Shown here piece by piece: positions 13,283-25,011 of a stretch of DNA of 64,000 nt. The DNA lies in assembly GCA_963422265.1 (NCBI GenBank), contig OY729416.1:256001-320000 (forward strand), read 5' to 3'. The DNA is from Thermodesulfobacteriota bacterium. Lineage in GTDB: Bacteria > Desulfobacterota_D > UBA1144 > Nemesobacterales > UBA2774. The translations under genes were made by a program, and so were the position numbers. The notes below the pieces were generated by a model that was not told where the DNA came from, made no database searches, and saw only the letters and a list, made by a program, of their open reading frames with translations. Each line of letters opens with the position of its first letter. The first letter of the stretch is position 1.

Positions 13283-14212
13283 CTAGAATTCCGAAGCTAC
13301 CTCTTTGGCAAAGAGCCTAAGCGTATCGTGATTCATGGGGTCGGAGAAGAAAATCGTGTATTTTCTAATGCCCTTCTTTTCATTCTCTAGTATCTTCTCT
13401 ATGCATTGATCAGGGGTGCCGACAATCCCAAAGCTTGCTATATCTCCAAAGAATCCATAGCGTCTTTGTCCCTTTTCCAACTTTGTTTTCAGTTCAGCTC
13501 CATCCCTTGCGATTACGCATACAGTCTGCTGCGATGTGGCAACATCGTTAATATCTCTGCCCACTTCGCTACAGTGATTTTCAAGAACCTTGAGTTTGTG
13601 GTCATATTCCTGCGCATGATTGGCAGGGCAGTTCCACCCATCCGCAAGCTCGGCTACTAGCCTTAGTAAATGTTTCTCTCCCGCTCCCCCGATTGTGATA
13701 GGCGGATGTGGTTTCTGAATCGGCTTTGGATTACAGTATGCTTCCTTAATTTTGTAATGCTTGCCTTCAAAACTGGGTTTCTCCTCCGTCCACATTGCCC
13801 TTATGATTTTTACAGTTTCAGCGAGTTGATCTATCCTCGTCGGCGTGTTGGGGAATTCATATCCGTAGGCGGCGTATTCTGGCTCAAACCATCCCGCTCC
13901 TATTGCGAACTCTAGCCTTCCCCCACTTATCACGTCAAGGGTTGCCCCCATCTTAGCGAGCAAGGGAGGGGGTCTGAAGGAATTGCAAAGAACCATAGAG
14001 CCGATTCTTACGTTTGACGTCACCGTTGATAGAGCCGACATCAGCGTCCATGCTTCATAAATGTCCAGATCAATCCCACCCATGCCGAGTATATGGTCGT
14101 AGAACCATATGGAATGGTAACCAAGCTCATCACATAACCCTGCGGTTTTTTTTATATCTTCAAAATCGATTTTCTGCTGACGGAGCATTACCCCAAATTC
14201 AATTCTGCTCAT
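13283..14212 (-). CDS. LLM-class (luciferase-like, probably F420-dependent) oxidoreductase
   Basis: WFYDH, EAWTLMSAL, RPPPLLAKMGATLDVISGGRLEFAIGAGW, PKPIQKPHPPITIGGAGE motifs. Confidence 0.9.
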   Translation of the reverse strand: MSRIEFGVMLRQQKIDFEDIKKTAGLCDELGYHSIWFYDHILGMGGIDLDIYEAWTLMSALSTVTSNVRIGSMVLCNSFRPPPLLAKMGATLDVISGGRLEFAIGAGWFEPEYAAYGYEFPNTPTRIDQLAETVKIIRAMWTEEKPSFEGKHYKIKEAYCNPKPIQKPHPPITIGGAGEKHLLRLVAELADGWNCPANHAQEYDHKLKVLENHCSEVGRDINDVATSQQTVCVIARDGAELKTKLEKGQRRYGFFGDIASFGIVGTPDQCIEKILENEKKGIRKYTIFFSDPMNHDTLRLFAKEVASEF

Positions 14213-14253
14213 TTTTCTCCTTCCCTTTCTTCTTAACCACCTCTTTTCGGCAA

Positions 14254-15078
14254 CTAAGCACTATCCGTGTCTTTCCCAGATATAATGAGATGATTAGATG
14301 CTTTCCCTTCCTCAACCAACCTTAAATAAGTATCAAAGTATTCAATATGATAATGAGTATTCTCTTCACCTTGCTCCTTGGCGATCTCGTCTGAATGCTC
14401 TTTATAGGCGTCTCCCCATCTTTTAACCTGGACCCGAAAGTCGGCTACGTATTCTGTTATCTCTTCAATCTTAAAGCCTGCGGACTCAAGCATCTTTTTA
14501 TAGCTCCCAAGCGAATCATAGTATTGAGGGATAAGATATCCCCTTGCCATTCTGTGTTTTATCTCGTCGTTATTAGGCATCTCAAATGTCCCGCTAAGAA
14601 ACACCCACCGTCCCGAGGGTTTCAGCGTCCTATAGACCTCTTTGAAGAGTCCGATTTTATCCTTGAACACGTTCATTACGTTGAGGCTTATGGCAAGATC
14701 GAACGTATCATTCTCAAAAGGCATGTTCATAGCGTCGCCTAGATAGAATTCCACTCTCTCTTGCATATTGGATTTATTGGCAAGCTTCTTTGACACCTCT
14801 ACTCCTACCTCGTTAATCTCTATACCGCTAATCATGCATCCGGACCTACTCGCTATGTATATGGCTGGTCCGCCTGCCCCGCTTCCTACGTCAAGCACGT
14901 GAGTGCCCTCTTTGATGCCGAGTCTGGGGATCAGCTCATCAAGGTATCGTGGCGTAATAAACGACTGCTGCCCTATATCTTCGTCCTTACCCCAGATTGA
15001 TTCTCTTATGAGTCTATTAGCTGGGCTGTCGAGCTGGTGAAGCTCTGAATAATCCACTCCTATCTGTTTTTCACTCAT
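14254..15078 (-). CDS. class I SAM-dependent methyltransferase (sarcosine/dimethylglycine N-methyltransferase-like)
   Basis: VLDVGSGAGG, GDAMNMPFENDTFD, RTLKPSG motifs; substrate is a guess. Confidence 0.8.
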   Translation of the reverse strand: MSEKQIGVDYSELHQLDSPANRLIRESIWGKDEDIGQQSFITPRYLDELIPRLGIKEGTHVLDVGSGAGGPAIYIASRSGCMISGIEINEVGVEVSKKLANKSNMQERVEFYLGDAMNMPFENDTFDLAISLNVMNVFKDKIGLFKEVYRTLKPSGRWVFLSGTFEMPNNDEIKHRMARGYLIPQYYDSLGSYKKMLESAGFKIEEITEYVADFRVQVKRWGDAYKEHSDEIAKEQGEENTHYHIEYFDTYLRLVEEGKASNHLIISGKDTDSA

Positions 15079-15289
15079 ATATTGTTAACTCCATTATGGT
15101 TTTCTAAACGTCACCTTATTCTACCGTAGAAATATGGCGTCCTGCAATGGGTTTGTCCGTTTTATCTCTCCTTAATGGGAGTATAGTCCTATGGGAAGAG
15201 CTATATTAGCTTTATTTATTGAATTCTACTTAGGTCTATGTCTCATCTTTTCCAGTTGGTGTTGCGGTTTTTGTTGAGAGTTTGCTCCA

Positions 15290-15455
15290 AGCCCCTCGGG
15301 AGAGGGAATGGGTGAGGGCTTCTCTTCACGTATTACCTCCCCCCCTTGGACACAGGGTCAGGGCACTTCCTTATCTTCTCCCCCTTTAGAGACAGGGACT
15401 AGGGCGCTTCCTTATCTTCTCCCCCTTTAGAGAAGGGGGATACAGGGGGATTTGA
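15290..15455. repeat. REP-like GC-rich palindrome cluster (three ~41-bp tandem units plus a CCCTCGGGAGAGGG unit)
   Basis: CTCCCCCTTTAGA..AGGG..CTTCCTTATCTT units; same family at 16181-16441 and 27900-27950. Confidence 0.75.
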
Positions 15456-15927
15456 TAGGGCATCGGGGAACGAACCCCTTCCTTATTATAGTTTGAAAGA
15501 TGGTTTGGCACGATTGGAAAGGGGCGATAGCTCCTGTCTGAGTTGGCTCTTCAGGGTGGTATCCTGAGCGGTCAGCGAGCTGGTTGCACTGTCCCGAGCG
15601 GTTGGTGAACCTGCCGAACCATGTAGAAGCGGGTGAGCTTGTCCAATCCATCTGAACTGTTCAGCTCCCCAGCTCCCCTGAAAACCTTACAAACTTATAC
15701 CTTTTAGCGATTTTCTGGATATTGGAAAGATGGTTTGGCACGGAGTTAAGCCTTTTAAAAACAGAAAACATAATTATTACAGGCTCTTCTTTATCATTTT
15801 CGCCCAATACAAACAAAATCCCCACCAACCACAAAGATTCCCCCGACCACCCATCAGGGCGACCATCCTTCGACAGGCTTAGGACATCGCTTACCAACTA
15901 GAGGCACCCCTACAACCACATCCGTCC

Positions 15928-16098
15928 TCACTTCGTTTTTCTGAATCCTCTACTCATCCCCCCAAGCATTGCCTCTATTCTTGCCTGCCCCTCCTGCAGC
16001 CCAGACAATCTGGCATCCATAGCCTTTGTCAGTCTTAATCTCCCTAACGTCTTCTCTATATGATCTATCTTCACTCTCAATACGTCTTGCTCAGTCAT
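15928..16098 (-). CDS. small hypothetical protein, 56 aa (MTEQDVLRVKIDHIEKTL...), coiled-coil-like
   Basis: hand-translated; AAGGAGG RBS shortly before ATG; below the ORF-track cutoff. Confidence 0.5.
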   Translation of the reverse strand: MTEQDVLRVKIDHIEKTLGRLRLTKAMDARLSGLQEGQARIEAMLGGMSRGFRKTK

Positions 16099-16180
16099 CC
16101 CCCACCTCCTTTATACCTCATCGTTACCCTGAATTTTCTGTCAAGCTTTTTAAAAAAACTTTATACCTCATTATACCCCA

Positions 16181-16441
16181 ATCATAGCCCATCATTCAAT
16201 CCTAAAAATCCTAGTTCAGACCTCCTTTCCCTCTGAGAGAGGAATACAAGGTGAGGCGCTTCCTTACATACTCCCCCTTTAGAAAAGGGGGATTTAGGGG
16301 GATTTGATCTTTATCCTTCCAATCACAGCTCATCATTCAATCATTCAAATCACAGTTCAGACATCCTTCCTCCCCCTGGGAGAGGGTCAGGGTGAGGGCG
16401 CTTCCTTATCTTCTCCCCCTTTGGAAAAGGGGGATACAGGG
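16181..16441. repeat. two tandem ~141-bp composite REP-like units, second truncated next to the CRISPR array
   Basis: 16181-16321 and 16322-16441 share ATCATTCAATC..AGTTCAGAC..GAGAGG..GGTGAGG..CTCCCCCTTT..AAAAGGGGGAT. Confidence 0.75.
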
Positions 16442-16565
16442 AAGCTGTGCTACCCTCTTGATCTCTTCAGTTGTGGATAGCGGGCAGGCTTCAGTCAGTT
16501 ACAATTATTCGGCGGGTCATACACGAGTTCTATCTCGGGATCATGACACACAGAAGGAGGTTCGT

Positions 16566-16724
16566 ATGGCAATAATATTTGCAATAATAGTAACCGTGTT
16601 ATTGATATTCGCATGTATCAGCATCATTCACCTATCTATAGCGTTACTTAATCACGTTATATGTACAGGTACTGATAGGTTATTTAGCAATCGCCGTAGA
16701 GGACGGCAAGGATGGAAACCATAA
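16566..16724 (+). CDS. 52-aa single-TM protein with basic tail, encoded inside the CRISPR array
   Basis: AAGGAGG RBS 5 nt before ATG; MAIIFAIIVTVLLIFACISIIHLSIALLNHVICTGTDRLFSNRRRGRQGWKP. Confidence 0.65.
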   Translation: MAIIFAIIVTVLLIFACISIIHLSIALLNHVICTGTDRLFSNRRRGRQGWKP

Positions 16725-16739
16725 ACTAAGGAGGTTCCA

Positions 16740-16883
16740 ATGAAAGAATATACACTGCAAGAATTTTTAGATGTCTCCATGACAAGACGAGATGGTGACA
16801 TACTCTTCACCTCGGCGACGGGCGAGGATATCCGTATCAGGTTGTGGATAGCGGGCAGGCTTCAGTCAGTTACAATATCATAA
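16740..16883 (+). CDS. 5' fragment of a second captured gene (33 codons) reading through repeat 2 (47 aa total)
   Basis: AAGGAGGTTCCAATG; MKEYTLQEFLDVSMTRRDGDILFTSATGEDIRI then repeat-encoded RLWIAGRLQSVTIS*. Confidence 0.5.
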   Translation: MKEYTLQEFLDVSMTRRDGDILFTSATGEDIRIRLWIAGRLQSVTIS

Positions 16884-17140
16884 TATGTTGCCGTCCCCCC
16901 CCGCGTGTTGTGGATAGCGGGCAGGCTTCAGTCAGTTACAATATATTCCAATTACGGTTTTGCAACGGGTCGGTTGTGGATAGCGGGCAGGCTTCAGTCA
17001 GTTACAATCAAGTCCCTGACGGGCCAATAGAGCCAAGCGTTGTGGATAGCGGGCAGGCTTCAGTCAGTTACAATCAAGTCCCTGACGGGCCAATAGAGCC
17101 AAGTGTTGTGGATAGCGGGCAGGCTTCAGTCAGTTACAAT

Positions 17141-17190
17141 TGCTTGCTCTCGACTGCCTTGCTGGTAAGGGTTTTAAGCCCCTCAACAAA
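17141..17190. promoter_or_regulatory. short cas2-proximal leader-like region
   Basis: 50-bp segment between the last repeat and the cas2 stop; this is the acquisition end in Neisseria-type II-C loci. Confidence 0.45.
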
Positions 17191-17535
17191 TTAAAAAAGA
17201 GAGATTTGTTGAGGGGCTCCTTCCAATTTCTTCCGTTTTTTTCCATAGAAAACCTGCATTCGTCCAAACTGTTTATCCGTGATAGTAATAATTCTGACCT
17301 CTCCTCTGGGTGGCAATTCATCTCTGACACGCCCCGAGTGGACATAAGCGTTTTCTTCACTTGCGCAATGTCTGGCATATACTGAAAATTGTAACATTAT
17401 AAAACCGTCTTGTATTAGCGACTTTCTGAATTTTCCATAAGAACGCCGATCCTGTTTGGTATCAGTAGGCAGGTCAAACATTACTAATATCCACACTGTT
17501 CTATATCCTCCGAAAGCCACTGTTCTATACCTCAA
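17191..17535 (-). CDS. cas2: CRISPR-associated endonuclease Cas2 (true start may be GTG at 17520 or 17496)
   Basis: WILVMFDLPT, FRKSLIQDGFIMLQFSVYAR, ITDKQF motifs. Confidence 0.97.
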   Translation of the reverse strand: MRYRTVAFGGYRTVWILVMFDLPTDTKQDRRSYGKFRKSLIQDGFIMLQFSVYARHCASEENAYVHSGRVRDELPPRGEVRIITITDKQFGRMQVFYGKKRKKLEGAPQQISLF

Positions 17536-18433
17536 GTCTCATCTGTTTATTATCAAGAAGTTGTGGGATCATCAGGGAATCCACGCCATCGGAGAAGGCT
17601 TTTTTCAAACTAGAAGCCGTATGCTGGGTTGCGACCATAAGGGGCAGTTTTCTGGTTTCAAGCAGAACGTCTTCTGATAAGATAGAAAGTAGAGGCATTT
17701 TTGTTCTCTTGTTTAGCTCGGACTTTCCGGCTTCTACCAATTCATAGACTCGTCTGTCAACAAGGGGGCGCAATGGCTCCATAACGTCATCGGCAAGACA
17801 CATAGGATTGTATTGGTTGTGGTGATGGATTCCGAGGGCAGGATGAAGTCCAGTTCCGCATAAAGCCCGCGCTACCGATGCTCTTACTATGCTATATCCA
17901 TAGTTGAGTAGGGAGTTTATTCCTTCCTCTTTATAATTCCTGGTAAAACTTTTGCCAAACAGCGTTATCCAATATACTCTCGCCGCCTGTGATTCTATAT
18001 TTTCAGTATCTCCACTATTAACCCTTTTTTTCATTGGGGGCAGGGAAGTTGGGTCTTTATTAAAGAAAAGCAGGGTTCGGATTTGAGATTCTATTTTAGC
18101 GACAATTATTTTCTGCCAAAGCCTTTTCTTCAAGGGTTTTTTAACTCCTGTTTGTATATTAAGCACTCTACTGTGAACTGAGTTGCCCGAAAGGGGTAGC
18201 AGGACCGAAACCGGAAGATGTTTGTTGTCGCAGAATACTACTATGCAATTGTTGTGCTGACACGAGGCGATAAGGCTTTGGGAAATGGTAATGAAGGGGT
18301 TGGCAAGTATAAGAATTCCCATATCTTCTACGGGAACGCTTTCGTCTTTTTCACCCTCCCTTTTCACAATCATTTGACGGTTTTTCAAGTGAAGATACGC
18401 CGGATTGCTTACTTCAATGATTCGCTTGATCAT
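17525..18433 (-). CDS. cas1: type II CRISPR-associated endonuclease Cas1
   Basis: VPVEDMG, SGDTENIESQAARVYW, NSLLNYGYSIVR, GIHHHNQYNPMCLADDVMEPLRP motifs. Confidence 0.98.
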   Translation of the reverse strand: MIKRIIEVSNPAYLHLKNRQMIVKREGEKDESVPVEDMGILILANPFITISQSLIASCQHNNCIVVFCDNKHLPVSVLLPLSGNSVHSRVLNIQTGVKKPLKKRLWQKIIVAKIESQIRTLLFFNKDPTSLPPMKKRVNSGDTENIESQAARVYWITLFGKSFTRNYKEEGINSLLNYGYSIVRASVARALCGTGLHPALGIHHHNQYNPMCLADDVMEPLRPLVDRRVYELVEAGKSELNKRTKMPLLSILSEDVLLETRKLPLMVATQHTASSLKKAFSDGVDSLMIPQLLDNKQMRLEV

Positions 18434-21400
18434 TGTTTGCTAGTCGGTGGTGTCCTGAGTTTGCCGAAGGGAGGATGGGAGTGAGACGACGTCCGAGAGC
18501 GTTTATAGTCTCTTTTTTGATTTTGAAGTCGGTCATCAGTTTAGAAGGTGCGACTGCTAATTCCAATTCTTTCTTTTCATTAAGAGGAAGTTTGTTGAAT
18601 TCTTTGTCAGATGTTGAGTCTGTATGTATTCGTAATGGCAGTTTTATACAATTGTTCTTTGAATCCCTATCAATCTTTCTAACCTTATAGAACTTTCTTT
18701 CGCCATTTTCTCTGATACTCACTGTGTCTCCCACACATAAGCTCATAACAAACTCCCAATCTTCCCCGTGATTGGTCTTCACAATCGGTTCTTTCAGAAT
18801 CCTTGCTCTTTCTGTAGCTTCCATAGTAGTTACAACAGTCCCTTTGTATTTTCCATTATTTCGGTTTTTCAAAATTTCCACATGATGGTTGTTTCCATAG
18901 GTAAAAACGCCAATGGTTTTCTCATCCTCATTTTTTTTGTAAAAGTGAAGATTTTCATTGGTCTTGTCAGATTGCCAAACCCGAGCGCGTCTGACAACAT
19001 CCCCCGTTTTTGGATGCTTGAAAGATTCTTCTTTCAATCTCTTTTGAGCGGTTTCTAGTCCACCATTCATATTGACATGTTGTTCAAAGCCTTCCTTGAT
19101 TACAGGACACACTATGTTTTTAAGGTCCTTGTCCGACATAGCAGTTAGATTTTTACGCACAACAATCCCTTTTCTGCCATTCTCTTCTCTTATTCCATAA
19201 GCTGTATCTTTGTGGAAAGCCCCAGTCAGCTTTCTATTCGTAGAATGAGATACAATCATTCGATTTGCTGCTTCGGTCAGGCTATCTCTCAGATTATTCA
19301 GAATAGAAGGCACTTCCATTCCATGTTCGGGAGAGACGTTGTCGTCATTCGCATACGATGCCAAGCGAACTATTTTCTGGTAGAGGCTGCGGTTTGTGAG
19401 GGCTATGACGGTTGCGTCAATAGCATGGTGGCGATGGTCGGCGCGGTTCTTTTCCCCGGTTTCTCCGAGGATGTTGTTCAGTCCCCATTGGTGACGAAGC
19501 CAGCTTGTGGCGCCCCCTTTTGTAAAAGAAACGTCACAGCCAAGCGTCTTCATGTATTTACCCGTTTCTCTTGCTATGTAGCGTGTGTCGCTTAACTGAT
19601 TGTTGATGAAATCATCTATATTATCCATTTCTTTTGTCATTACCCGTTTGCGTTTTGGATCCGGATAATCTTTTATGGTGTTTTCAATGATCTCCCATTG
19701 TTCGGTATTGCCAAAAGCCTCCCAAGGGCTTTTGTTGCCTTTCTTCTGATTTTCTTGAGCAAAACATACGACTTTATTCATATAAGAGTTGTCAAGGCTT
19801 CTGCTATACGGCAGTATGTGGTCTATCTCAACGTCTGCCGACCAAAGGTCAGTCAGAGAGATTGTTTCTCCGCTGTAGGAACATTGCTGCTTGCTTTCTG
19901 TCCAGAGCCTGTATTTCAGCTTGTCTTGATGGCTTATGTGTGTCCTCAATTGTAGATGGGGGTTCGCATTACGAATTTCATTGTATTTTTCTTCTGCTTC
20001 CTCATTCGCCTTCGTGTTAGCCTCCTGAATTTTTTTATTTCTTTGATACCTTTTGGTATTCATTTCCAAATCACGAGCCATTTCTATGCGTATTGATGCT
20101 GGCTTTCCATACTCTTTGATTATTGCATTTACAACACGACGGACCTCATAAAGCGCCTTTGTAACAATGGGGTTTGGTATAAATGGTATTTCTCCAAGAG
20201 TGTCGTCATTTCCGTCTGGTTGCTTGATAATCTCTTTATAGCCGGCTGCTTGAACAGCGCCCAATTCTTCTTTCCTGTCGCTTTCCCTGCTGTAAATTCT
20301 GCCTTCTTTAAGGTGGGGAAGAATGTTGTTTATTGCCTTTAATGAGAGATTGCCATATCCCTCTTCCAATTCCAGTACCGCAAGTTTTACGGCTTTTTCC
20401 AAATCAAACTTCCAGTAGTTTTGAAGCCGTTTTTTCAGTCCCTTCTTGGATTCGTAGGAAATCAAGTCTTCAACAAGTTGTTTCTGTATCTTCTCATCCC
20501 ACGAGTCCCACACATCCCCGATAATTTCCCTGACTTCATAGGCTGTTCGGTTTCCCTGAATTCCCTTTCTGTTTTTTCCTTCAACCTTTTCCAGATTGAA
20601 TTTCGTTTTTTTATTCAGATTGAGAAGGTCTTTCTTTTTGAGAGCCGTCCATGTTAGATTTCTTGTTTTTTCGAGTGTTTCAGCTATAAGGCTTTTCTGT
20701 TCTAATGTGGGTTTTGCATCTACTTCTCCAGTTTCAAGGTCATACCAACTCAAATTATTTATATCCTGCCAGTAGCGGAATTGTTGAGACTCGAGTCGTC
20801 CATGCTCTATTCTTCTTTTGTTCGGTTCTAGCGAGCAGTTACCTATCGTTTTCTTATCCCATCTTACGGGTCGTTGAAAAAATATGATTTCTTCAATTGT
20901 TTCTTTTACTTCTTTTGTATAGAGCTCGGGGTTTAGTGCAGACTGTTTTTGAAAGATTATTTCGAGCTCCTCCTGATACATTTTTCTATCAGTTCTTCGG
21001 TCGTGATGTTCCCCCCTGTTACGCGTGCGATCTTGGTTTTTGAGATATTCTCCCAAAGTCCTCATTCCGCTTTCTTTTATTTCTCCGCAAAGTTTTTTAA
21101 TATCCTTTTTGAAAGCGCCTTCATCTTTATCAGATTTTGTTGTTTCATCTTCAATCTTAAGAATCTCCTGCGATTCCGGGTCCTCGCGCAGATCTCCAAA
21201 TCCTGTTTTGCGATTACTGAGGAATCCCCTCCGCGTTCCTAAATGCAGGACTGCACGTCCGAATTCGTGAGGATTAAGCTCCTTATCTAGCGCTTTTGCT
21301 CTTAGTTCGTAAGGGTCTCCGAGTTTGTTGAGTTCAACTTCAGGGTTGGGGTTGTTCTTCAGGGTTTCTGGTAAAAATCCCTTGCTTATAAGATAGTTTC

Positions 21401-21638
21401 TCAATCGCGCCTTGCGTCTGTGGCGGCGTTCTATAACTCGCCTTGAAAGGCGCGCTCTCCTGCGATCCTGATTTTTAGGTTTAGGAGTTTTATCTTCAAC
21501 AGAACGGATAAAGATACGGCTTCCACAACCAATAAATCTTATGGGTTCTCCGTTGTTTTCCTCAACTATACTCCAGCCAATAGAGTTCGTTCCTACATCA
21601 AGACCCAGAGCGTATTCAGAGAGTTTTGGTTTTTTCAT
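18414..21638 (-). CDS. cas9: type II-C Cas9 (1074 aa)
   Basis: RuvC-I LGLDVGTNSIGW, Arg-rich bridge helix, IEMARD, HNH EIDHILPYSRSLDNSYMNKV, RuvC-III HHAIDA; no csn2 or cas4 in the locus. Confidence 0.98.
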   Translation of the reverse strand: MKKPKLSEYALGLDVGTNSIGWSIVEENNGEPIRFIGCGSRIFIRSVEDKTPKPKNQDRRRARLSRRVIERRHRRKARLRNYLISKGFLPETLKNNPNPEVELNKLGDPYELRAKALDKELNPHEFGRAVLHLGTRRGFLSNRKTGFGDLREDPESQEILKIEDETTKSDKDEGAFKKDIKKLCGEIKESGMRTLGEYLKNQDRTRNRGEHHDRRTDRKMYQEELEIIFQKQSALNPELYTKEVKETIEEIIFFQRPVRWDKKTIGNCSLEPNKRRIEHGRLESQQFRYWQDINNLSWYDLETGEVDAKPTLEQKSLIAETLEKTRNLTWTALKKKDLLNLNKKTKFNLEKVEGKNRKGIQGNRTAYEVREIIGDVWDSWDEKIQKQLVEDLISYESKKGLKKRLQNYWKFDLEKAVKLAVLELEEGYGNLSLKAINNILPHLKEGRIYSRESDRKEELGAVQAAGYKEIIKQPDGNDDTLGEIPFIPNPIVTKALYEVRRVVNAIIKEYGKPASIRIEMARDLEMNTKRYQRNKKIQEANTKANEEAEEKYNEIRNANPHLQLRTHISHQDKLKYRLWTESKQQCSYSGETISLTDLWSADVEIDHILPYSRSLDNSYMNKVVCFAQENQKKGNKSPWEAFGNTEQWEIIENTIKDYPDPKRKRVMTKEMDNIDDFINNQLSDTRYIARETGKYMKTLGCDVSFTKGGATSWLRHQWGLNNILGETGEKNRADHRHHAIDATVIALTNRSLYQKIVRLASYANDDNVSPEHGMEVPSILNNLRDSLTEAANRMIVSHSTNRKLTGAFHKDTAYGIREENGRKGIVVRKNLTAMSDKDLKNIVCPVIKEGFEQHVNMNGGLETAQKRLKEESFKHPKTGDVVRRARVWQSDKTNENLHFYKKNEDEKTIGVFTYGNNHHVEILKNRNNGKYKGTVVTTMEATERARILKEPIVKTNHGEDWEFVMSLCVGDTVSIRENGERKFYKVRKIDRDSKNNCIKLPLRIHTDSTSDKEFNKLPLNEKKELELAVAPSKLMTDFKIKKETINALGRRLTPILPSANSGHHRLANNDQANH

Positions 21639-21666
21639 TTATTATCCCCTTTGTTAGTGCAAACTC

Positions 21667-21695
21667 TTGACGCCTTCTAGTTCTTTCTGTACCAT
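21667..21695 (+). promoter_or_regulatory. putative sigma70 promoter for tracrRNA
   Basis: TTGACG-N17-TACCAT just upstream of the anti-repeat. Confidence 0.6.
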
Positions 21696-21706
21696 CTATA
21701 CTAGTG

Positions 21707-21735
21707 ATTGTAACTGACTGAAGCCTGCCAAACAA
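21707..21735 (-). promoter_or_regulatory. putative cas9 promoter embedded in the tracrRNA anti-repeat
   Basis: minus strand reads TTGTTT-N17-TACAAT about 70 bp upstream of the cas9 ATG. Confidence 0.45.
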
Positions 21736-21799
21736 TTTCTGTTTTGCTATTCATAACAAGAAGCAAATGTTTCGCAGGATAGCCTTTCAAGGTAAACCT

Positions 21800-21829
21800 A
21801 AGCGCCTCCCAGCGGGGCGCTTTTTTTTT
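21800..21829 (+). terminator. Rho-independent terminator of tracrRNA
   Basis: AAGCGCCTCCC-AGC-GGGGCGC stem-loop followed by T9. Confidence 0.85.
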
Positions 21830-21974
21830 ATAATGTGGTGGTTTTGCCCTTTGAAAATGGTGAGGTGGCGCTATTTAGCTAGAAACGGTGAGAGGGGGGG
21901 TGTAGACAGGGTAGGGATGTATAAAGGTAGCCGTCATCCTTTTCCTATGGAATAAGTACCCGTAGCAAACCAGG

Positions 21975-23237
21975 TCAACTTTTATACTTAACAGCCGACT
22001 TACAAATTTCCTCAATATCAACCTCTTCTTCAGAGCTTTTTCTCATATCTCGGACGGTTAGCTTGCCACGACTGAGTTCGTCTTCTCCTATAATAAAAGC
22101 GTATTTAGCCCCTGATTTATCTGCTCGCCTAAGCTGGCTTTTGAGGCTTTTAGCGCCATAATCCATTTCTGTATGAACCCCAATTCGCCTAAGTTCGTAT
22201 GCCAATGAGAAGGATTTCTTCAGCGCTTCTTTGCCTAAGTGCGCGATGAATAAGTCAACCTCTTTTTCAAATCCGCTGGGGGCGGTGAGCTTATGAAGGA
22301 GAATTATTCTATCAATACCCATAGCGAAGCCGACGGCTGGGGTCTTCGGTCCACCAAGCTCCTTTACAAGTCCGTCGTATCTTCCACCTGCGGCTACTGC
22401 GTTTTGCGCGCCTAGTCTATCCGTTGTGATCTCAAAAACCGTTCTATTGTAATAATCAAGACCCCTTACTATTCTGGGGTTAATAGTGAATTGAACGCCT
22501 ACCACGTTTAAGTTCTCCTTAACTGCTTCAAAGTGGTTTTTACATTCATCGCAAAGATTCTCTAGCATTGAAGGGGAATTCCTAGCCATTGCCTCGCAAC
22601 TGGGGTTTTTGCAGTCAAGTATTCTTAATGGGTTCGTCTTGAGCCTTCTTTGGCAGTCTTCGCATAAATCCCCTTTCAGTGGCGTGAAGTATTCTATTAT
22701 CTTCTCTTTATGGCGGGGTTTGCAATTCTCATCTCCTAAAGAATTCAACTCAAGCGTAACGTATTGAGAGAGCCCTGTCGCTTCAAAAAAGCTCATTAGC
22801 ATTGTGATTATCTCGGCGTCAGCGGTGGGATAGATTGATCCGAAAAGCTCAGCACCTATCTGATAGAATCCACGATACCGTCCCTTCTGGGGGCGTTCGT
22901 GCCTGAACATCATGCCTGAGTAGTAGAGCTTGGTTATGGACGACTTGGCGTGCATAGAGTGCTCTACGTAAGCTCTTACTACTCCAGCGGTGCCTTCTGG
23001 GCGGAGGGTTATGGATGAATTGTCCCTGTCTGTAAAAGTGTACATCTCCTTTTCCACGACGTCGGTTGAGGTGCCTAGGCTTCGGACGAAAACTTCAGTA
23101 AACTCAACTATGGGAATCCTTATTTCAGAAAATCCGTAAGGTTCAAATGTAGCCTTTGCCTTTTCCTCTACATAGCACCATCTAGTGGTATCCTCAGGCA
23201 GTATGTCGTTGAACCCTCTGATTGATTTTGCTTTCAT
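21975..23237 (-). CDS. hisS: histidine--tRNA ligase
   Basis: VEKEMYTF, LRPEGTAG, FRHERPQKGRYR, VRGLDYY, GGRYDGL motifs. Confidence 0.98.
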   Translation of the reverse strand: MKAKSIRGFNDILPEDTTRWCYVEEKAKATFEPYGFSEIRIPIVEFTEVFVRSLGTSTDVVEKEMYTFTDRDNSSITLRPEGTAGVVRAYVEHSMHAKSSITKLYYSGMMFRHERPQKGRYRGFYQIGAELFGSIYPTADAEIITMLMSFFEATGLSQYVTLELNSLGDENCKPRHKEKIIEYFTPLKGDLCEDCQRRLKTNPLRILDCKNPSCEAMARNSPSMLENLCDECKNHFEAVKENLNVVGVQFTINPRIVRGLDYYNRTVFEITTDRLGAQNAVAAGGRYDGLVKELGGPKTPAVGFAMGIDRIILLHKLTAPSGFEKEVDLFIAHLGKEALKKSFSLAYELRRIGVHTEMDYGAKSLKSQLRRADKSGAKYAFIIGEDELSRGKLTVRDMRKSSEEEVDIEEICKSAVKYKS

Positions 23238-23439
23238 AAAGTTTGCTCGCTTATCGTAAATTCAATATGTTTGCTTGTGGAAGGCTGGAGTCTTGAAAAC
23301 TCCACATGGATAAACACTTATCATATCTTACAATATAGCCGATTTCTATTCTACGGGAGAGTTTAGAGTGTGTGGTCGCCGCTCTATAAGGTTGCTTTGC
23401 CGTCGCGGAGTCTTTACTTTAGCATAATCCACGTGTATT

Positions 23440-25011
23440 TTGTCTCACCTTAAATTCCTCCTGATTTTACTTAGCGCTTCTATTATGAAAAGAGAAATAA
23501 TCAAGAGAGTTTTAACTCTGAGCCTAGTTCTATTGCTCCTGACGGCTTTCACTAAGCAGTCATTTGGTGATGACAAACTGGAGTTTCAGGATGTACCCAT
23601 ACAAATTGATGGAGATGGTATTCATAGTCGAAATGGGCAGACGTTTCTTGATGATGACAATAGCCGGAGATGGAACGGTGCCCCTGGTCTAGGAGTGAAG
23701 GAGTTTGCTAGAGATACCGGAATAGCCTACGCCTCGGTATGGACGGCGAGGTGGTTCTACGTGAGAAACAAGAACAGTAGAATGTTTGATACCTCTCTTT
23801 CCGACTGGTGGAATAATATCTCACAGTTGCCAGAGGAGGATGACGGCGATGAGTTTTTCACAAACTTCATAGTTCATCCAGTTGTAGGTTCTCAATACTA
23901 CCTTTACTACCGTGCTATGGGTCATAGTTTTTGGGCATCGGCATTAGGGTCGTTCATTCAGAGCACGCTATTTGAATATACAGTTGAGGGTCTTGTGGAG
24001 ACCCCGTCTCTTCCTGACCTGGTCATTACCCCTCTTTTAGGGGTTCCACTAGGTTTCGGATTAGAAGAGACGTCTGACTTTCTTATAGAAACCGATTTTG
24101 TTCCTGCCAAAGTCCTCGCGCACGTGCTAAACCCTATGAGAAATTTAATCCATGACAGGCAGATAGGGGTTTATAACCCTTTTACAAAACAATTTATGTC
24201 CGTAGGGGGTCCCCTTACCTTTAACGCGAGTAGCGACGAATCTATAAAGCTCGCTTATCCGTTTTTTATTGAGTCTCCACTTCCTATTGGGAGGTTTATG
24301 ACGAGTATTGAATTTGTAAGTTTAGAGAAAAATCTGGGTGGCGAGTTTATCTTCTACTCTGCGAGGGTTGACATTCCATCAAGAAATGATATCTGGGAAG
24401 TTTACGTGCAGATTGCTCAGTCGGGCGTTAACGAGGTGGTCGTAAATGGAACCGATGTGAGTGATGGATTTGAGTTTGCCAATCTGTTAGTCGGCGGAAA
24501 ACACCTGCTTTTCAGGTCTAGTAATTCTGCACTTTCTGCTGGACTCGATTTGCACCTCCCTACATCGTATAAAGATAATGTTAAGAGGCTTAGAACTTTG
24601 TTGCTTTATAGAAAACATTTTCCTATGAACCTTCAGAGAGCCTGGACGGTTACGCCTTATCTAACGGGCGCATACTGGCAAGGAGTTTTTAGCATTCAGG
24701 CAATGGCTGGAACCGATTGGGTATTGAACGCTGGCAGGCTAGAGGGGAACAGCGTTGAGTTCATGCTGAACTACGCTGCATCCTTGGGGGCAAATATACC
24801 GACAACAATCTCCCCTGTCCTATTTGCGGAATTTAATGGTTACTCACTATTAACGGCTGATAATTATGAGAAGACGGACTTATTTGCGTCAACGGGAGTC
24901 AGGTTTGGTAGAAAGTTTAGTCCAGGTTTTGCAATGCAGTTCCCTCTCAGCGGTAGTGGTAAAGACGTGGCTAAATTGAGTTTCTTAATTGATTTTCAGG
25001 TTAGGCTTTAA
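23440..25011 (+). CDS. DUF3943-containing, probably outer-membrane protein (start likely ATG 23485)
   Basis: signal peptide; DGDEFFTNFIVHPVVGSQYY..FEYTVE..PSLPDLVITP motif; beta-strand-rich C-terminal half. Confidence 0.7.
   Translation: MSHLKFLLILLSASIMKREIIKRVLTLSLVLLLLTAFTKQSFGDDKLEFQDVPIQIDGDGIHSRNGQTFLDDDNSRRWNGAPGLGVKEFARDTGIAYASVWTARWFYVRNKNSRMFDTSLSDWWNNISQLPEEDDGDEFFTNFIVHPVVGSQYYLYYRAMGHSFWASALGSFIQSTLFEYTVEGLVETPSLPDLVITPLLGVPLGFGLEETSDFLIETDFVPAKVLAHVLNPMRNLIHDRQIGVYNPFTKQFMSVGGPLTFNASSDESIKLAYPFFIESPLPIGRFMTSIEFVSLEKNLGGEFIFYSARVDIPSRNDIWEVYVQIAQSGVNEVVVNGTDVSDGFEFANLLVGGKHLLFRSSNSALSAGLDLHLPTSYKDNVKRLRTLLLYRKHFPMNLQRAWTVTPYLTGAYWQGVFSIQAMAGTDWVLNAGRLEGNSVEFMLNYAASLGANIPTTISPVLFAEFNGYSLLTADNYEKTDLFASTGVRFGRKFSPGFAMQFPLSGSGKDVAKLSFLIDFQVRL

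What the first reader, a model, noticed from the sequence alone, without database searches (positions are those of the whole stretch)
16506..16840. 335-bp gene-carrying 'giant spacer' between two perfect CRISPR repeats
Seen: repeats 1 and 2 are perfect 36-mers but 335 bp apart, while all other spacers are 30 bp. The insert has no degenerate repeats and no evident IS ends, and 335 does not fit 30+66n. It holds a complete 52-aa ORF and the first 33 codons of a second ORF, both preceded by AAGGAGGTTC, like tightly packed phage genes. Known: Cas1-Cas2 integration duplicates the repeat on both sides of an insert and normally fixes its length. Inference: a long foreign fragment was integrated as a spacer, so the array has captured a gene.
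Basis: partly seen in the sequence, partly recalled or inferred. Interest (0 to 1): 0.88.

Follow-up and report, generated by a model that had tools for sequence, protein, structure and literature searches.

The report
Gene-bearing oversized spacer in CRISPR array
The oldest unit of an otherwise normal Cas9-type CRISPR array holds about 334 bases of orphan, phage-like DNA with a small membrane-peptide gene instead of a 30-base spacer; the feature is real, but how it got there is unresolved.

Summary
Observation confirmed. Six perfect 36-nt repeats lie at 16470-17140. The first two are separated by 335 bp (334 bp in all four read-derived contig sets); the other four spacers are 30 nt.

The locus is a complete type II-C system: cas9, cas1, cas2, and a predicted tracrRNA at about 21703-21832. 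The conserved leader lies on the cas2 side, so the big unit sits at the old trailer end. It is present at single-copy depth in four samples of two studies, while leader-side spacers vary.

The insert is single copy and has no decayed repeats, terminal inverted repeats or transposase. I found no relative in any searched collection. It carries two ORFs behind AAGGAGGT ribosome sites, which are rare in the host.

Best reading (0.4): a foreign fragment was integrated over-length by Cas1-Cas2, probably as the array's first unit. It would then be transcribed from the repeat-embedded promoter and give a crRNA from its last roughly 24 nt.

Main rival (0.25): a 297-bp piece inserted into an ordinary 31-nt spacer. 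A 6-bp direct repeat fits this (chance about 2%).

Spacers of 100 nt or more are already in print, mostly transposon-like. This scan also noted kilobase spacers in CPR bacteria on other DNA (unchecked notes). Interest is moderate.

The parts
16470..16505 (+). CRISPR repeat 1, the trailer-end terminal repeat; perfect 36-mer ending in TACAAT, a likely -10 box
   Evidence: promoter role inferred from the Neisseria II-C precedent (PMC12477760, passages read)
16506..16840 (+). oversized 'spacer' (335 bp in the window, 334 bp in four read-derived contig sets)
16566..16724 (+). ORF1, 52 aa: N-terminal hydrophobic stretch of about 28 residues, then a basic tail (+6/-1); AAGGAGGT lies 5 nt before the ATG
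   Evidence: no relative found
16740..16840 (+). ORF2 start: 33 codons inside the insert behind a second AAGGAGGT, then the frame runs into repeat 2
16509..16514 (+). left copy of the 6-bp direct repeat TCGGCG (possible target-site duplication)
16812..16817 (+). right copy of the 6-bp direct repeat TCGGCG
16841..17140 (+). repeats 2-6 with four 30-nt spacers; spacers 3 and 4 differ by one base
17141..17190 (+). conserved leader between the last repeat and cas2 (the acquisition end)
   Evidence: (81% mean column identity in 8 genomes) against (33% for the other flank)
17191..17535 (-). cas2
   Evidence: PF09827, E 5.8e-18
17525..18433 (-). cas1
   Evidence: PF01867, E 5.1e-31
18414..21638 (-). 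cas9, 1074 aa, with HNH and RuvC domains
   Evidence: PADLOC Cas9, E 1.5e-113
21703..21832 (+). predicted tracrRNA: promoter-like site 21667-21695; anti-repeat in two blocks around a 16-nt bulge; terminator 21800-21822 plus a T run
   Evidence: cofold with the repeat -83.9 kcal/mol, all 36 repeat bases paired

Best explanation
A fragment of foreign DNA, of the kind found in tightly packed phage or plasmid genomes, sits as the oldest unit of a working type II-C CRISPR array.

Most likely the Cas1-Cas2 integrase joined an untrimmed, over-length prespacer of about 334 bp to the two ends of a repeat. This may have been the first acquisition into a lone founder repeat. Gap repair then duplicated the repeat, as for a normal spacer.

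In II-C arrays every repeat carries its own promoter. Repeat 1 should therefore transcribe the whole insert, giving an mRNA-like pre-crRNA that carries the ribosome site and ORF1 (a 52-aa membrane peptide). tracrRNA pairing at repeat 2 would still yield a Cas9 guide from the last roughly 24 nt.

Shown: the anatomy, the copy number, the trailer-end position, and the unit's presence in four samples.

Inferred: foreign origin, integration by Cas1-Cas2, transcription, and guide function.
For: 1. The insert is bounded exactly by two full repeats, which is the footprint of integrase-type insertion.
2. It holds no decayed repeat and its length does not fit lost repeats.
3. It is not a transposon: single copy in the genome, no terminal inverted repeats, no transposase, and no DNA match in the 60 relatives searched.
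4. It looks foreign. Both of its ORFs use AAGGAGGT before the ATG, whereas AAGGAGG precedes only 30 of 1033 long host ORFs in a rough survey. ORF2 is cut by the repeat.
5. cas9, cas1, cas2 and a tracrRNA are intact.
6. The unit is at the trailer end. The cas2-side flank is conserved in 8 genomes (81% against 33%). G037 has its degenerate repeat at the far end. In Neisseria II-C the leader adjoins the last-transcribed repeat.
7. The unit is at full single-copy depth in 4 of 4 runs, while leader-side spacers are partly or wholly missing in 3 of them.
8. All six repeats share a C at position 20, where the relatives and the genome's lone repeat have T. This fits growth of the array from one founder repeat.
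9. In vitro, Streptococcus pyogenes Cas1-Cas2 mostly makes one-ended insertions, which the authors propose repair can complete (PMC8390005, passages read). That gives a route around the length ruler.
Against: - No protospacer or source element was found. The insert ORFs gave 0 confirmed relatives in viral, genome or metagenome contigs. Blastn of the insert against phage and plasmid records gave no match. The end of the insert gave 0 matches in viral contigs.
- Insert GC (41.8%) is ordinary for the host (44.1%).
- The ruler of this system family is tight: 158 spacers of relatives are all 28-33 nt, and the other four spacers here are 30 nt.
- In the same in-vitro work, longer prespacer mimics were inhibited at the second junction.
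- A 6-bp direct repeat near both ends fits insertion into a 31-nt spacer better than chance (about 2%).
- Published spacers of 100 nt or more are mostly transposon-like (PMC4524480, passages read).
- No RNA data exist for transcription.
Confidence: 0.4

Rival explanations
1. A normal 31-nt trailer spacer was later split by insertion of a 297-bp piece of DNA (16515-16811). The mechanism leaves a 6-bp duplication: a small non-autonomous element, or DNA captured at a staggered break. Cas1-Cas2 played no part in the oversize.
For: In the 334-bp version supported by all four read sets, TCGGCG at 16509-16514 and 16812-16817 brackets 297 bp. The remaining 9 + 22 nt add up to 31 nt. A duplication of 6 bp or more compatible with a 29-31-nt spacer arose in 2.0% of 20000 random 334-bp genome segments. 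Spacers of 31 nt make up 8 of 129 in relatives. Published long 'spacers' are mostly insertions.
Against: The check was post hoc. In the window's 335-bp version the sum is 32 nt (1 of 129 spacers in relatives). The 297-bp piece has no terminal inverted repeats, is single copy and is absent from the relatives searched, unlike a MITE or IS. No contig in 4 runs shows the uninterrupted spacer, though contigs drop rare variants.
Confidence: 0.25
2. The segment was swapped in by homologous recombination between two array repeats and two copies of the same repeat carried on a mobile element, for example a plasmid or phage mini-array or solitary repeat units.
For: This would also give exact repeat borders. 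Lone repeats of this family exist outside arrays: one in G000 at C1:882423-882458, one in G053 and one in G075. In the 334-bp version ORF2 ends at a stop just inside the repeat, so it could be a whole small gene that natively abuts a repeat.
Against: The repeat core found 0 matches in viral contigs. No element carrying the insert was found. The idea also only moves the question of origin to the donor.
Confidence: 0.15
3. Whatever its origin, the unit is kept because it does something. ORF1 would be driven by the repeat promoter as a small membrane toxin, or as an exclusion or addiction peptide, tied to the CRISPR locus in the manner of CRISPR-repressed toxin modules.
For: The unit is present at full depth in 4 of 4 runs from two studies while other spacers vary. 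ORF1 is intact, with a strong ribosome site, about 55 nt downstream of a likely promoter. Its shape, one hydrophobic helix plus a basic tail, resembles small membrane toxins; that resemblance is recalled, not tested.
Against: Trailer-end units are conserved among strains anyway. The one variant seen, C to T at 16672 in run X5, changes Thr36 to Ile by my reading of the codon. ORF1 has no relatives at all: 0 at E of 0.001 or better among 1.84 billion representatives. None of the eight relatives' array loci read carries such a unit, nor do the rows. The last 30 nt of the insert have no second site in the genome at up to 6 mismatches, so there is no self-repression target.
Confidence: 0.1
4. Assembly artefact, or a run of decayed repeat-spacer units.
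For: The assembly carries small errors: one base at 16840, and frameshifts reported elsewhere by earlier scan notes.
Against: One contig spans repeat, insert and repeat in 4 of 4 independent read sets at single-copy depth. There is no residual repeat similarity and the length does not fit. Two ORFs with ribosome sites lie inside.
Confidence: 0.03

Closest known systems
Neisseria meningitidis type II-C CRISPR-Cas9 locus (PMC12477760; passages read)
   Same: cas9-cas1-cas2 followed by the array. The 36-nt repeat starts GTTGT and ends TACAAT (the Neisseria repeat sequence itself is recalled). crRNAs come from repeat-embedded promoters. The leader lies at the transcription-downstream end, where new spacers enter. 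No csn2 or cas4.
   Different: Here the trailer-most unit is about 334 bp and carries ORFs. The tracrRNA is predicted only, and no RNA or acquisition data exist.
Long 'spacers' of 100 nt or more in E. coli, P. aeruginosa and S. thermophilus arrays (Kupczok et al. 2015, PMC4524480; passages read)
   Same: Over-length sequence between CRISPR repeats in natural arrays: 14 such spacers across the paper's data-set columns.
   Different: The majority of those resemble transposons. This one has no transposase, no inverted ends and no second copy. The paper's supplementary table S4 was not readable here, so I cannot say what its non-transposon cases are.
One-ended Cas1-Cas2 integration completed by repair (S. 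pyogenes, in vitro; PMC8390005; passages read)
   Same: Offers a route by which a DNA end could be joined at one repeat border and the event finished without the length ruler.
   Different: That work used 26-nt protospacers and short mimics. No long insert was reported in the passages read, and longer mimics were inhibited at the second junction.
Arrays with kilobase-long spacers next to cas1-cas2 in CPR bacteria
   Same: Perfect repeats bracket foreign DNA cut through genes.
   Different: There all units are long and the trait is shared by relatives. Here it is one unit among 30-nt spacers in a canonical Cas9 system, and 158 spacers of relatives are normal.

Membership tests
Type II-C CRISPR-Cas locus | Cas9 with HNH and RuvC domains | tested here: met
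Type II-C CRISPR-Cas locus | cas1 and cas2 present; no csn2 or cas4 in the operon | tested here: met
   cas9, cas1 and cas2 overlap or abut. The histidyl-tRNA synthetase gene lies beyond the tracrRNA and the array follows cas2. No further ORF of 80 aa or more lies between them.
Type II-C CRISPR-Cas locus | tracrRNA with an anti-repeat | tested here: met
   Sequence and fold only; expression not tested.
Type II-C CRISPR-Cas locus | Repeat-embedded promoter and a leader at the downstream end | tested here: inconclusive
   The repeats of the 13 other genomes end in TACAAT, TAAAAT, TAAACT or TAAATT, all keeping TAnnnT. The conserved flank is on the cas2 side. No RNA run holds the locus.
Genuine CRISPR spacer (integrated by Cas1-Cas2) | Bracketed by full repeats on both sides | tested here: met
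Genuine CRISPR spacer (integrated by Cas1-Cas2) | Length set by the system's ruler (28-33 nt in this family) | tested here: not met
   334/335 bp, against 158 spacers of 28-33 nt
Genuine CRISPR spacer (integrated by Cas1-Cas2) | Matching protospacer with a PAM in a mobile element | tested here: inconclusive
   No match in any collection searched. The ordinary spacers tried also found none in viral contigs.
IS, transposon or MITE insertion in an array | Transposase gene or terminal inverted repeats | tested here: not met
IS, transposon or MITE insertion in an array | More than one copy in the genome or in relatives | tested here: not met
IS, transposon or MITE insertion in an array | Target-site duplication | tested here: inconclusive
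   6-bp TCGGCG fits a 31-nt spacer; chance about 2%
Decayed repeat-spacer units | Residual repeat similarity and a length of 30+66n | tested here: not met
CRISPR-repressed toxin-antitoxin (CreTA-like; features recalled, not read here) | A crRNA-like guide with a partial match to the toxin's own promoter | tested here: not met
   The last 30 nt of the insert have no other site in the genome at up to 6 mismatches. Shorter seed matches were not examined.

The most novel reading that the evidence does not exclude
A canonical Cas9-type (II-C) adaptation machine can, rarely, integrate a prespacer more than ten times over-length in vivo. Perhaps this happens when it fills a lone founder repeat. Because II-C repeats are promoters, the array then both stores and expresses a captured foreign gene, while still making a guide from the fragment's end.
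Probability: 0.3. Interest if true: 0.7.

Novelty: new variant of a known kind. Interest (0 to 1): 0.45.

Why it matters
If the fragment was integrated by Cas1-Cas2, the length ruler of a Cas9-type system is not absolute in nature, and CRISPR arrays could occasionally act as gene-capture sites. In II-C systems a captured gene would come with a ready promoter.

It would also be a natural counterpart to the arrays with kilobase spacers that this scan noted in CPR bacteria.

If it is an insertion into a spacer, it is one more case of array damage, of modest interest. The two readings can be told apart once the source element is found.

Tried and rejected
**Searches for a source of the insert (all negative)**
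- Blastn of the insert against phage and plasmid records: no match.
- ORF1 against viral, genome and metagenome contigs: pattern hits but no confirmed relative.
- ORF1 by word search of 5.8 billion proteins: none.
- ORF1 by phmmer against 1.84 billion representatives: 0 at E of 0.001 or better.
- ORF1 in Pfam, PHROGs and PADLOC: none.
- ORF1 in the ESM Atlas: best score 0.82, below the level that means anything.
- ORF2 in PHROGs and PADLOC (33 aa) and Pfam (47 aa): none.
- ORF2 as the 47-aa frame, searching longer proteins: none.
- ORF2 as degenerate DNA patterns in viral, genome and metagenome contigs: 0.
- The end of the insert and two ordinary spacers as exact patterns in viral contigs: 0.
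- The repeat core in viral contigs: 0.
- Earlier scan findings by sequence: nothing.

**Other negative results**
- Rfam on 14000-24000: only two sub-threshold chance hits.
- No RNA holder is listed among the public runs, so expression could not be examined.
- No contig in the four runs laid shows the insert continuing past either border into non-repeat DNA, among the loose ends shown (91 more were not shown).
- First and last bases of the 129 relatives' spacers show no bias that could test the insert's ends.

**Literature searches**
- 'Unusually long spacer' gave nothing relevant.
- Among the 20 papers listed for 'oversized spacer', 'giant spacer' and related terms, neither of those two phrases occurred.
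- I found no paper describing a gene-bearing, non-transposon spacer, but these searches are narrow and subscription journals are not covered.

**Rejected readings**: decayed repeats, IS/MITE, misassembly (see the rival explanations).

Full report
**What is there**

The window holds six copies of a 36-nt repeat, without a single mismatch, at 16470, 16841, 16907, 16973, 17039 and 17105 on the + strand. The first two are 371 bases apart start to start, which leaves 335 bp between them (16506-16840). The other four intervals are 30 nt.

Directly beyond the last repeat, on the minus strand, lie three genes:
- cas2 (17191-17535);
- cas1 (17525-18433);
- a 1074-aa Cas9 with HNH and RuvC domains (18414-21638).

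No csn2 or cas4 is present. This is a type II-C layout.

Upstream of cas9, on the + strand, there is a promoter-like site (21667-21695). It is followed by a sequence that is the exact complement of the 3' 23 nt of the repeat, then a 16-nt bulge, then 12 nt that pair with the 5' 12 nt of the repeat, and finally a strong terminator (21800-21822 plus a run of T). Cofolded with the repeat, all 36 repeat bases pair (-83.9 kcal/mol). I take this as the tracrRNA. It fixes the crRNA strand as +, so the array is read from 16470 towards cas2.

**Is the assembly right?**

Five public runs from two studies hold the stretch. I laid four of them, from four samples.

- In each, one contig of 369-400 nt runs from repeat 1 through the whole insert into repeat 2 (16467 or 16492 to 16861 or 16867).
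- Its depth is like that of the neighbouring cas2 region: 11.1 against 15.8, 31.9 against 27.4, 339.9 against 289.1, and 32.9 against 19.9.
- Other contigs join the unique left flank to repeat 1.
- All four lack one base at 16840, so the insert is most likely 334 bp and the window has a one-base error there. Earlier notes of this scan also report frameshifts in this assembly (not checked by me).

The unit is real. The order of units along the array rests on the window's own assembly, because the repeat is longer than the overlap at which these contigs break.

**Which end of the array is it?**

Thirteen other genomes of the same order carry this repeat family, out of 100 searched. None of the 32 in the same family does. 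Four lines of evidence place the giant unit at the trailer end:

1. In seven relatives plus this genome, the 80 nt between the last repeat and cas2 align without gaps at 81% mean column identity. The 80 nt before the first repeat are unrelated (33%).
2. G037 has its one degenerate repeat at the cas-distal end.
3. In Neisseria meningitidis II-C, crRNAs start at the 6th nt of each spacer from repeat-embedded promoters, and the leader, where new spacers enter, adjoins the last repeat in transcription order (PMC12477760; passages read).
4. In three of the four runs laid, the leader-side spacers of the window are missing or at a fraction of the depth, while the giant unit is at full depth.

So the giant unit is the oldest unit of the array, not a fresh acquisition.

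All six repeats share a C at position 20, where the relatives and a lone repeat elsewhere in this genome have T. This fits an array rebuilt from a single founder repeat.

**What is in the insert?**

- No residue of a repeat: the best local score is 7, against a mean of 8.4 for 500 shuffles.
- No terminal inverted repeats.
- No second copy in the 1.78-Mb genome.
- No DNA match in the 60 relatives searched.
- GC is 41.8% against 44.1% for the genome, which is unremarkable.

It carries two ORFs:
- ORF1 (16566-16724) encodes 52 aa: a hydrophobic stretch of about 28 residues and a basic tail.
- ORF2 starts 15 nt after ORF1's stop and is cut by repeat 2 after 33 codons. In the 334-bp version it stops 3 codons into the repeat.

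Both follow AAGGAGGTTC. In the host, AAGGAGG precedes only 30 of 1033 long ORFs by a rough first-ATG survey, and AAGGAGGT followed by ATG occurs 33 times in the whole genome, two of them here.

A third frame is open for 22 codons from the left border and stops overlapping ORF1's start. That length is not significant on its own.

I found no relative of ORF1 or ORF2, and no DNA match, in any collection. 'Foreign' therefore rests on context and translation signals, not on a match.

**How unusual is the size?**

In eight relatives' loci, 129 spacers are 28-33 nt, and 100 of them are exactly 30. Twenty-nine more, read from the coordinates, are 29-30 nt.

This scan has also noted arrays made wholly of kilobase spacers in CPR bacteria, on other DNA (unchecked notes).

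**How did it get there?**

Exact repeat borders, with no spare bases and no decayed repeats, are what integrase-type insertion gives. So my first choice (0.4) is an over-length prespacer joined by Cas1-Cas2, possibly as the first event at a lone repeat.

One published route round the ruler exists. S. pyogenes Cas1-Cas2 in vitro mostly makes one-ended insertions, which the authors propose repair can finish. However, longer mimics were inhibited at the second junction (PMC8390005; passages read).

The main rival (0.25) comes from a 6-bp direct repeat. TCGGCG occurs at 16509-16514 and 16812-16817. In the 334-bp version, the 9 nt before the first copy's end and the 22 nt after the second copy add up to a 31-nt spacer split by 297 bp. 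Such a fit arose in 2.0% of 20000 random genome segments. The check was post hoc, 31-nt spacers are only 8 of 129 in relatives, and the 297 bp do not look like a mobile element. I therefore treat it as a live alternative, not the leading one.

The remaining readings:
- Recombination with a repeat-bearing mobile element (0.15) would also give exact borders, but nothing supports a donor.
- A retained function for ORF1 (0.1, not exclusive of the others) is possible but unsupported.
- Artefact or decayed units is about 0.03.

**How it would work now (inferred)**

Repeat 1 ends in TACAAT, and the family's variants keep TAnnnT. Transcription should therefore start a few bases into the insert and run through ORF1's ribosome site, about 45 nt downstream.

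tracrRNA pairing at repeat 2 would let Cas9 load the 3' end of this long RNA, so the last roughly 24 nt could still act as a guide. That guide has no second site in the genome at up to 6 mismatches.

None of this could be tested: no RNA run holds the locus.

**Verdict**

It is a new variant of a known kind, namely long 'spacers' in arrays. It is of moderate interest and would become high if an over-length integration by a Cas9-type adaptation module were shown.

Noticed in passing
G000:C1:882423-882458 (-), = L007 1501-1536: A lone copy of the CRISPR repeat (2 mismatches) lies 600 kb from the array. It sits between a DsbA-like gene and a PLP-dependent decarboxylase (LysA-like) gene, 44 nt before the latter's ATG, with its TACAAT end facing that gene. 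It could serve as that gene's promoter, or be a relic of an older array. It keeps T at repeat position 20, as the relatives do. G053 and G075 also have lone repeats.
   Followed up: partly
window 15100-16442: About 1.3 kb without long ORFs is filled with copies of a 140-bp G/C-stretch-rich repeat element (for example 16178-16256 against 16319-16397). At least a dozen further copies lie elsewhere in the genome, at 79-92% identity, and short cores occur in related genera. In the four runs its depth is 100-fold above single copy.
   Followed up: partly
window 17009-17038 and 17075-17104: Spacers 3 and 4 are identical but for their last base (C/T). This is either a duplicated repeat-spacer unit with a later change, or two acquisitions from variant targets. 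Both are absent from the three runs of the second study.
   Followed up: no
window 16943-16992, runs X2 and X5: Sequence matching the second 30-nt spacer (16943-16972) is at about host depth in two runs where the array stretch just before it (repeat 3, 16907-16942) is nearly absent. In X2 one contig carries it behind non-repeat DNA (tables 2 and 7). This may be the targeted element itself, living alongside strains that lack the spacer. I could not fetch it.
   Followed up: no
window 21730-21745: The predicted tracrRNA anti-repeat is interrupted by a 16-nt insertion that folds as a small hairpin between the two pairing blocks. This is an unusual duplex geometry for a Cas9 guide pair.
   Followed up: partly
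window 16840 and 17140: Read-derived contigs lack one base at 16840 in 4 of 4 runs and at 17140 in 1 of 4. These are small errors or strain differences in the assembly at repeat borders.
   Followed up: yes
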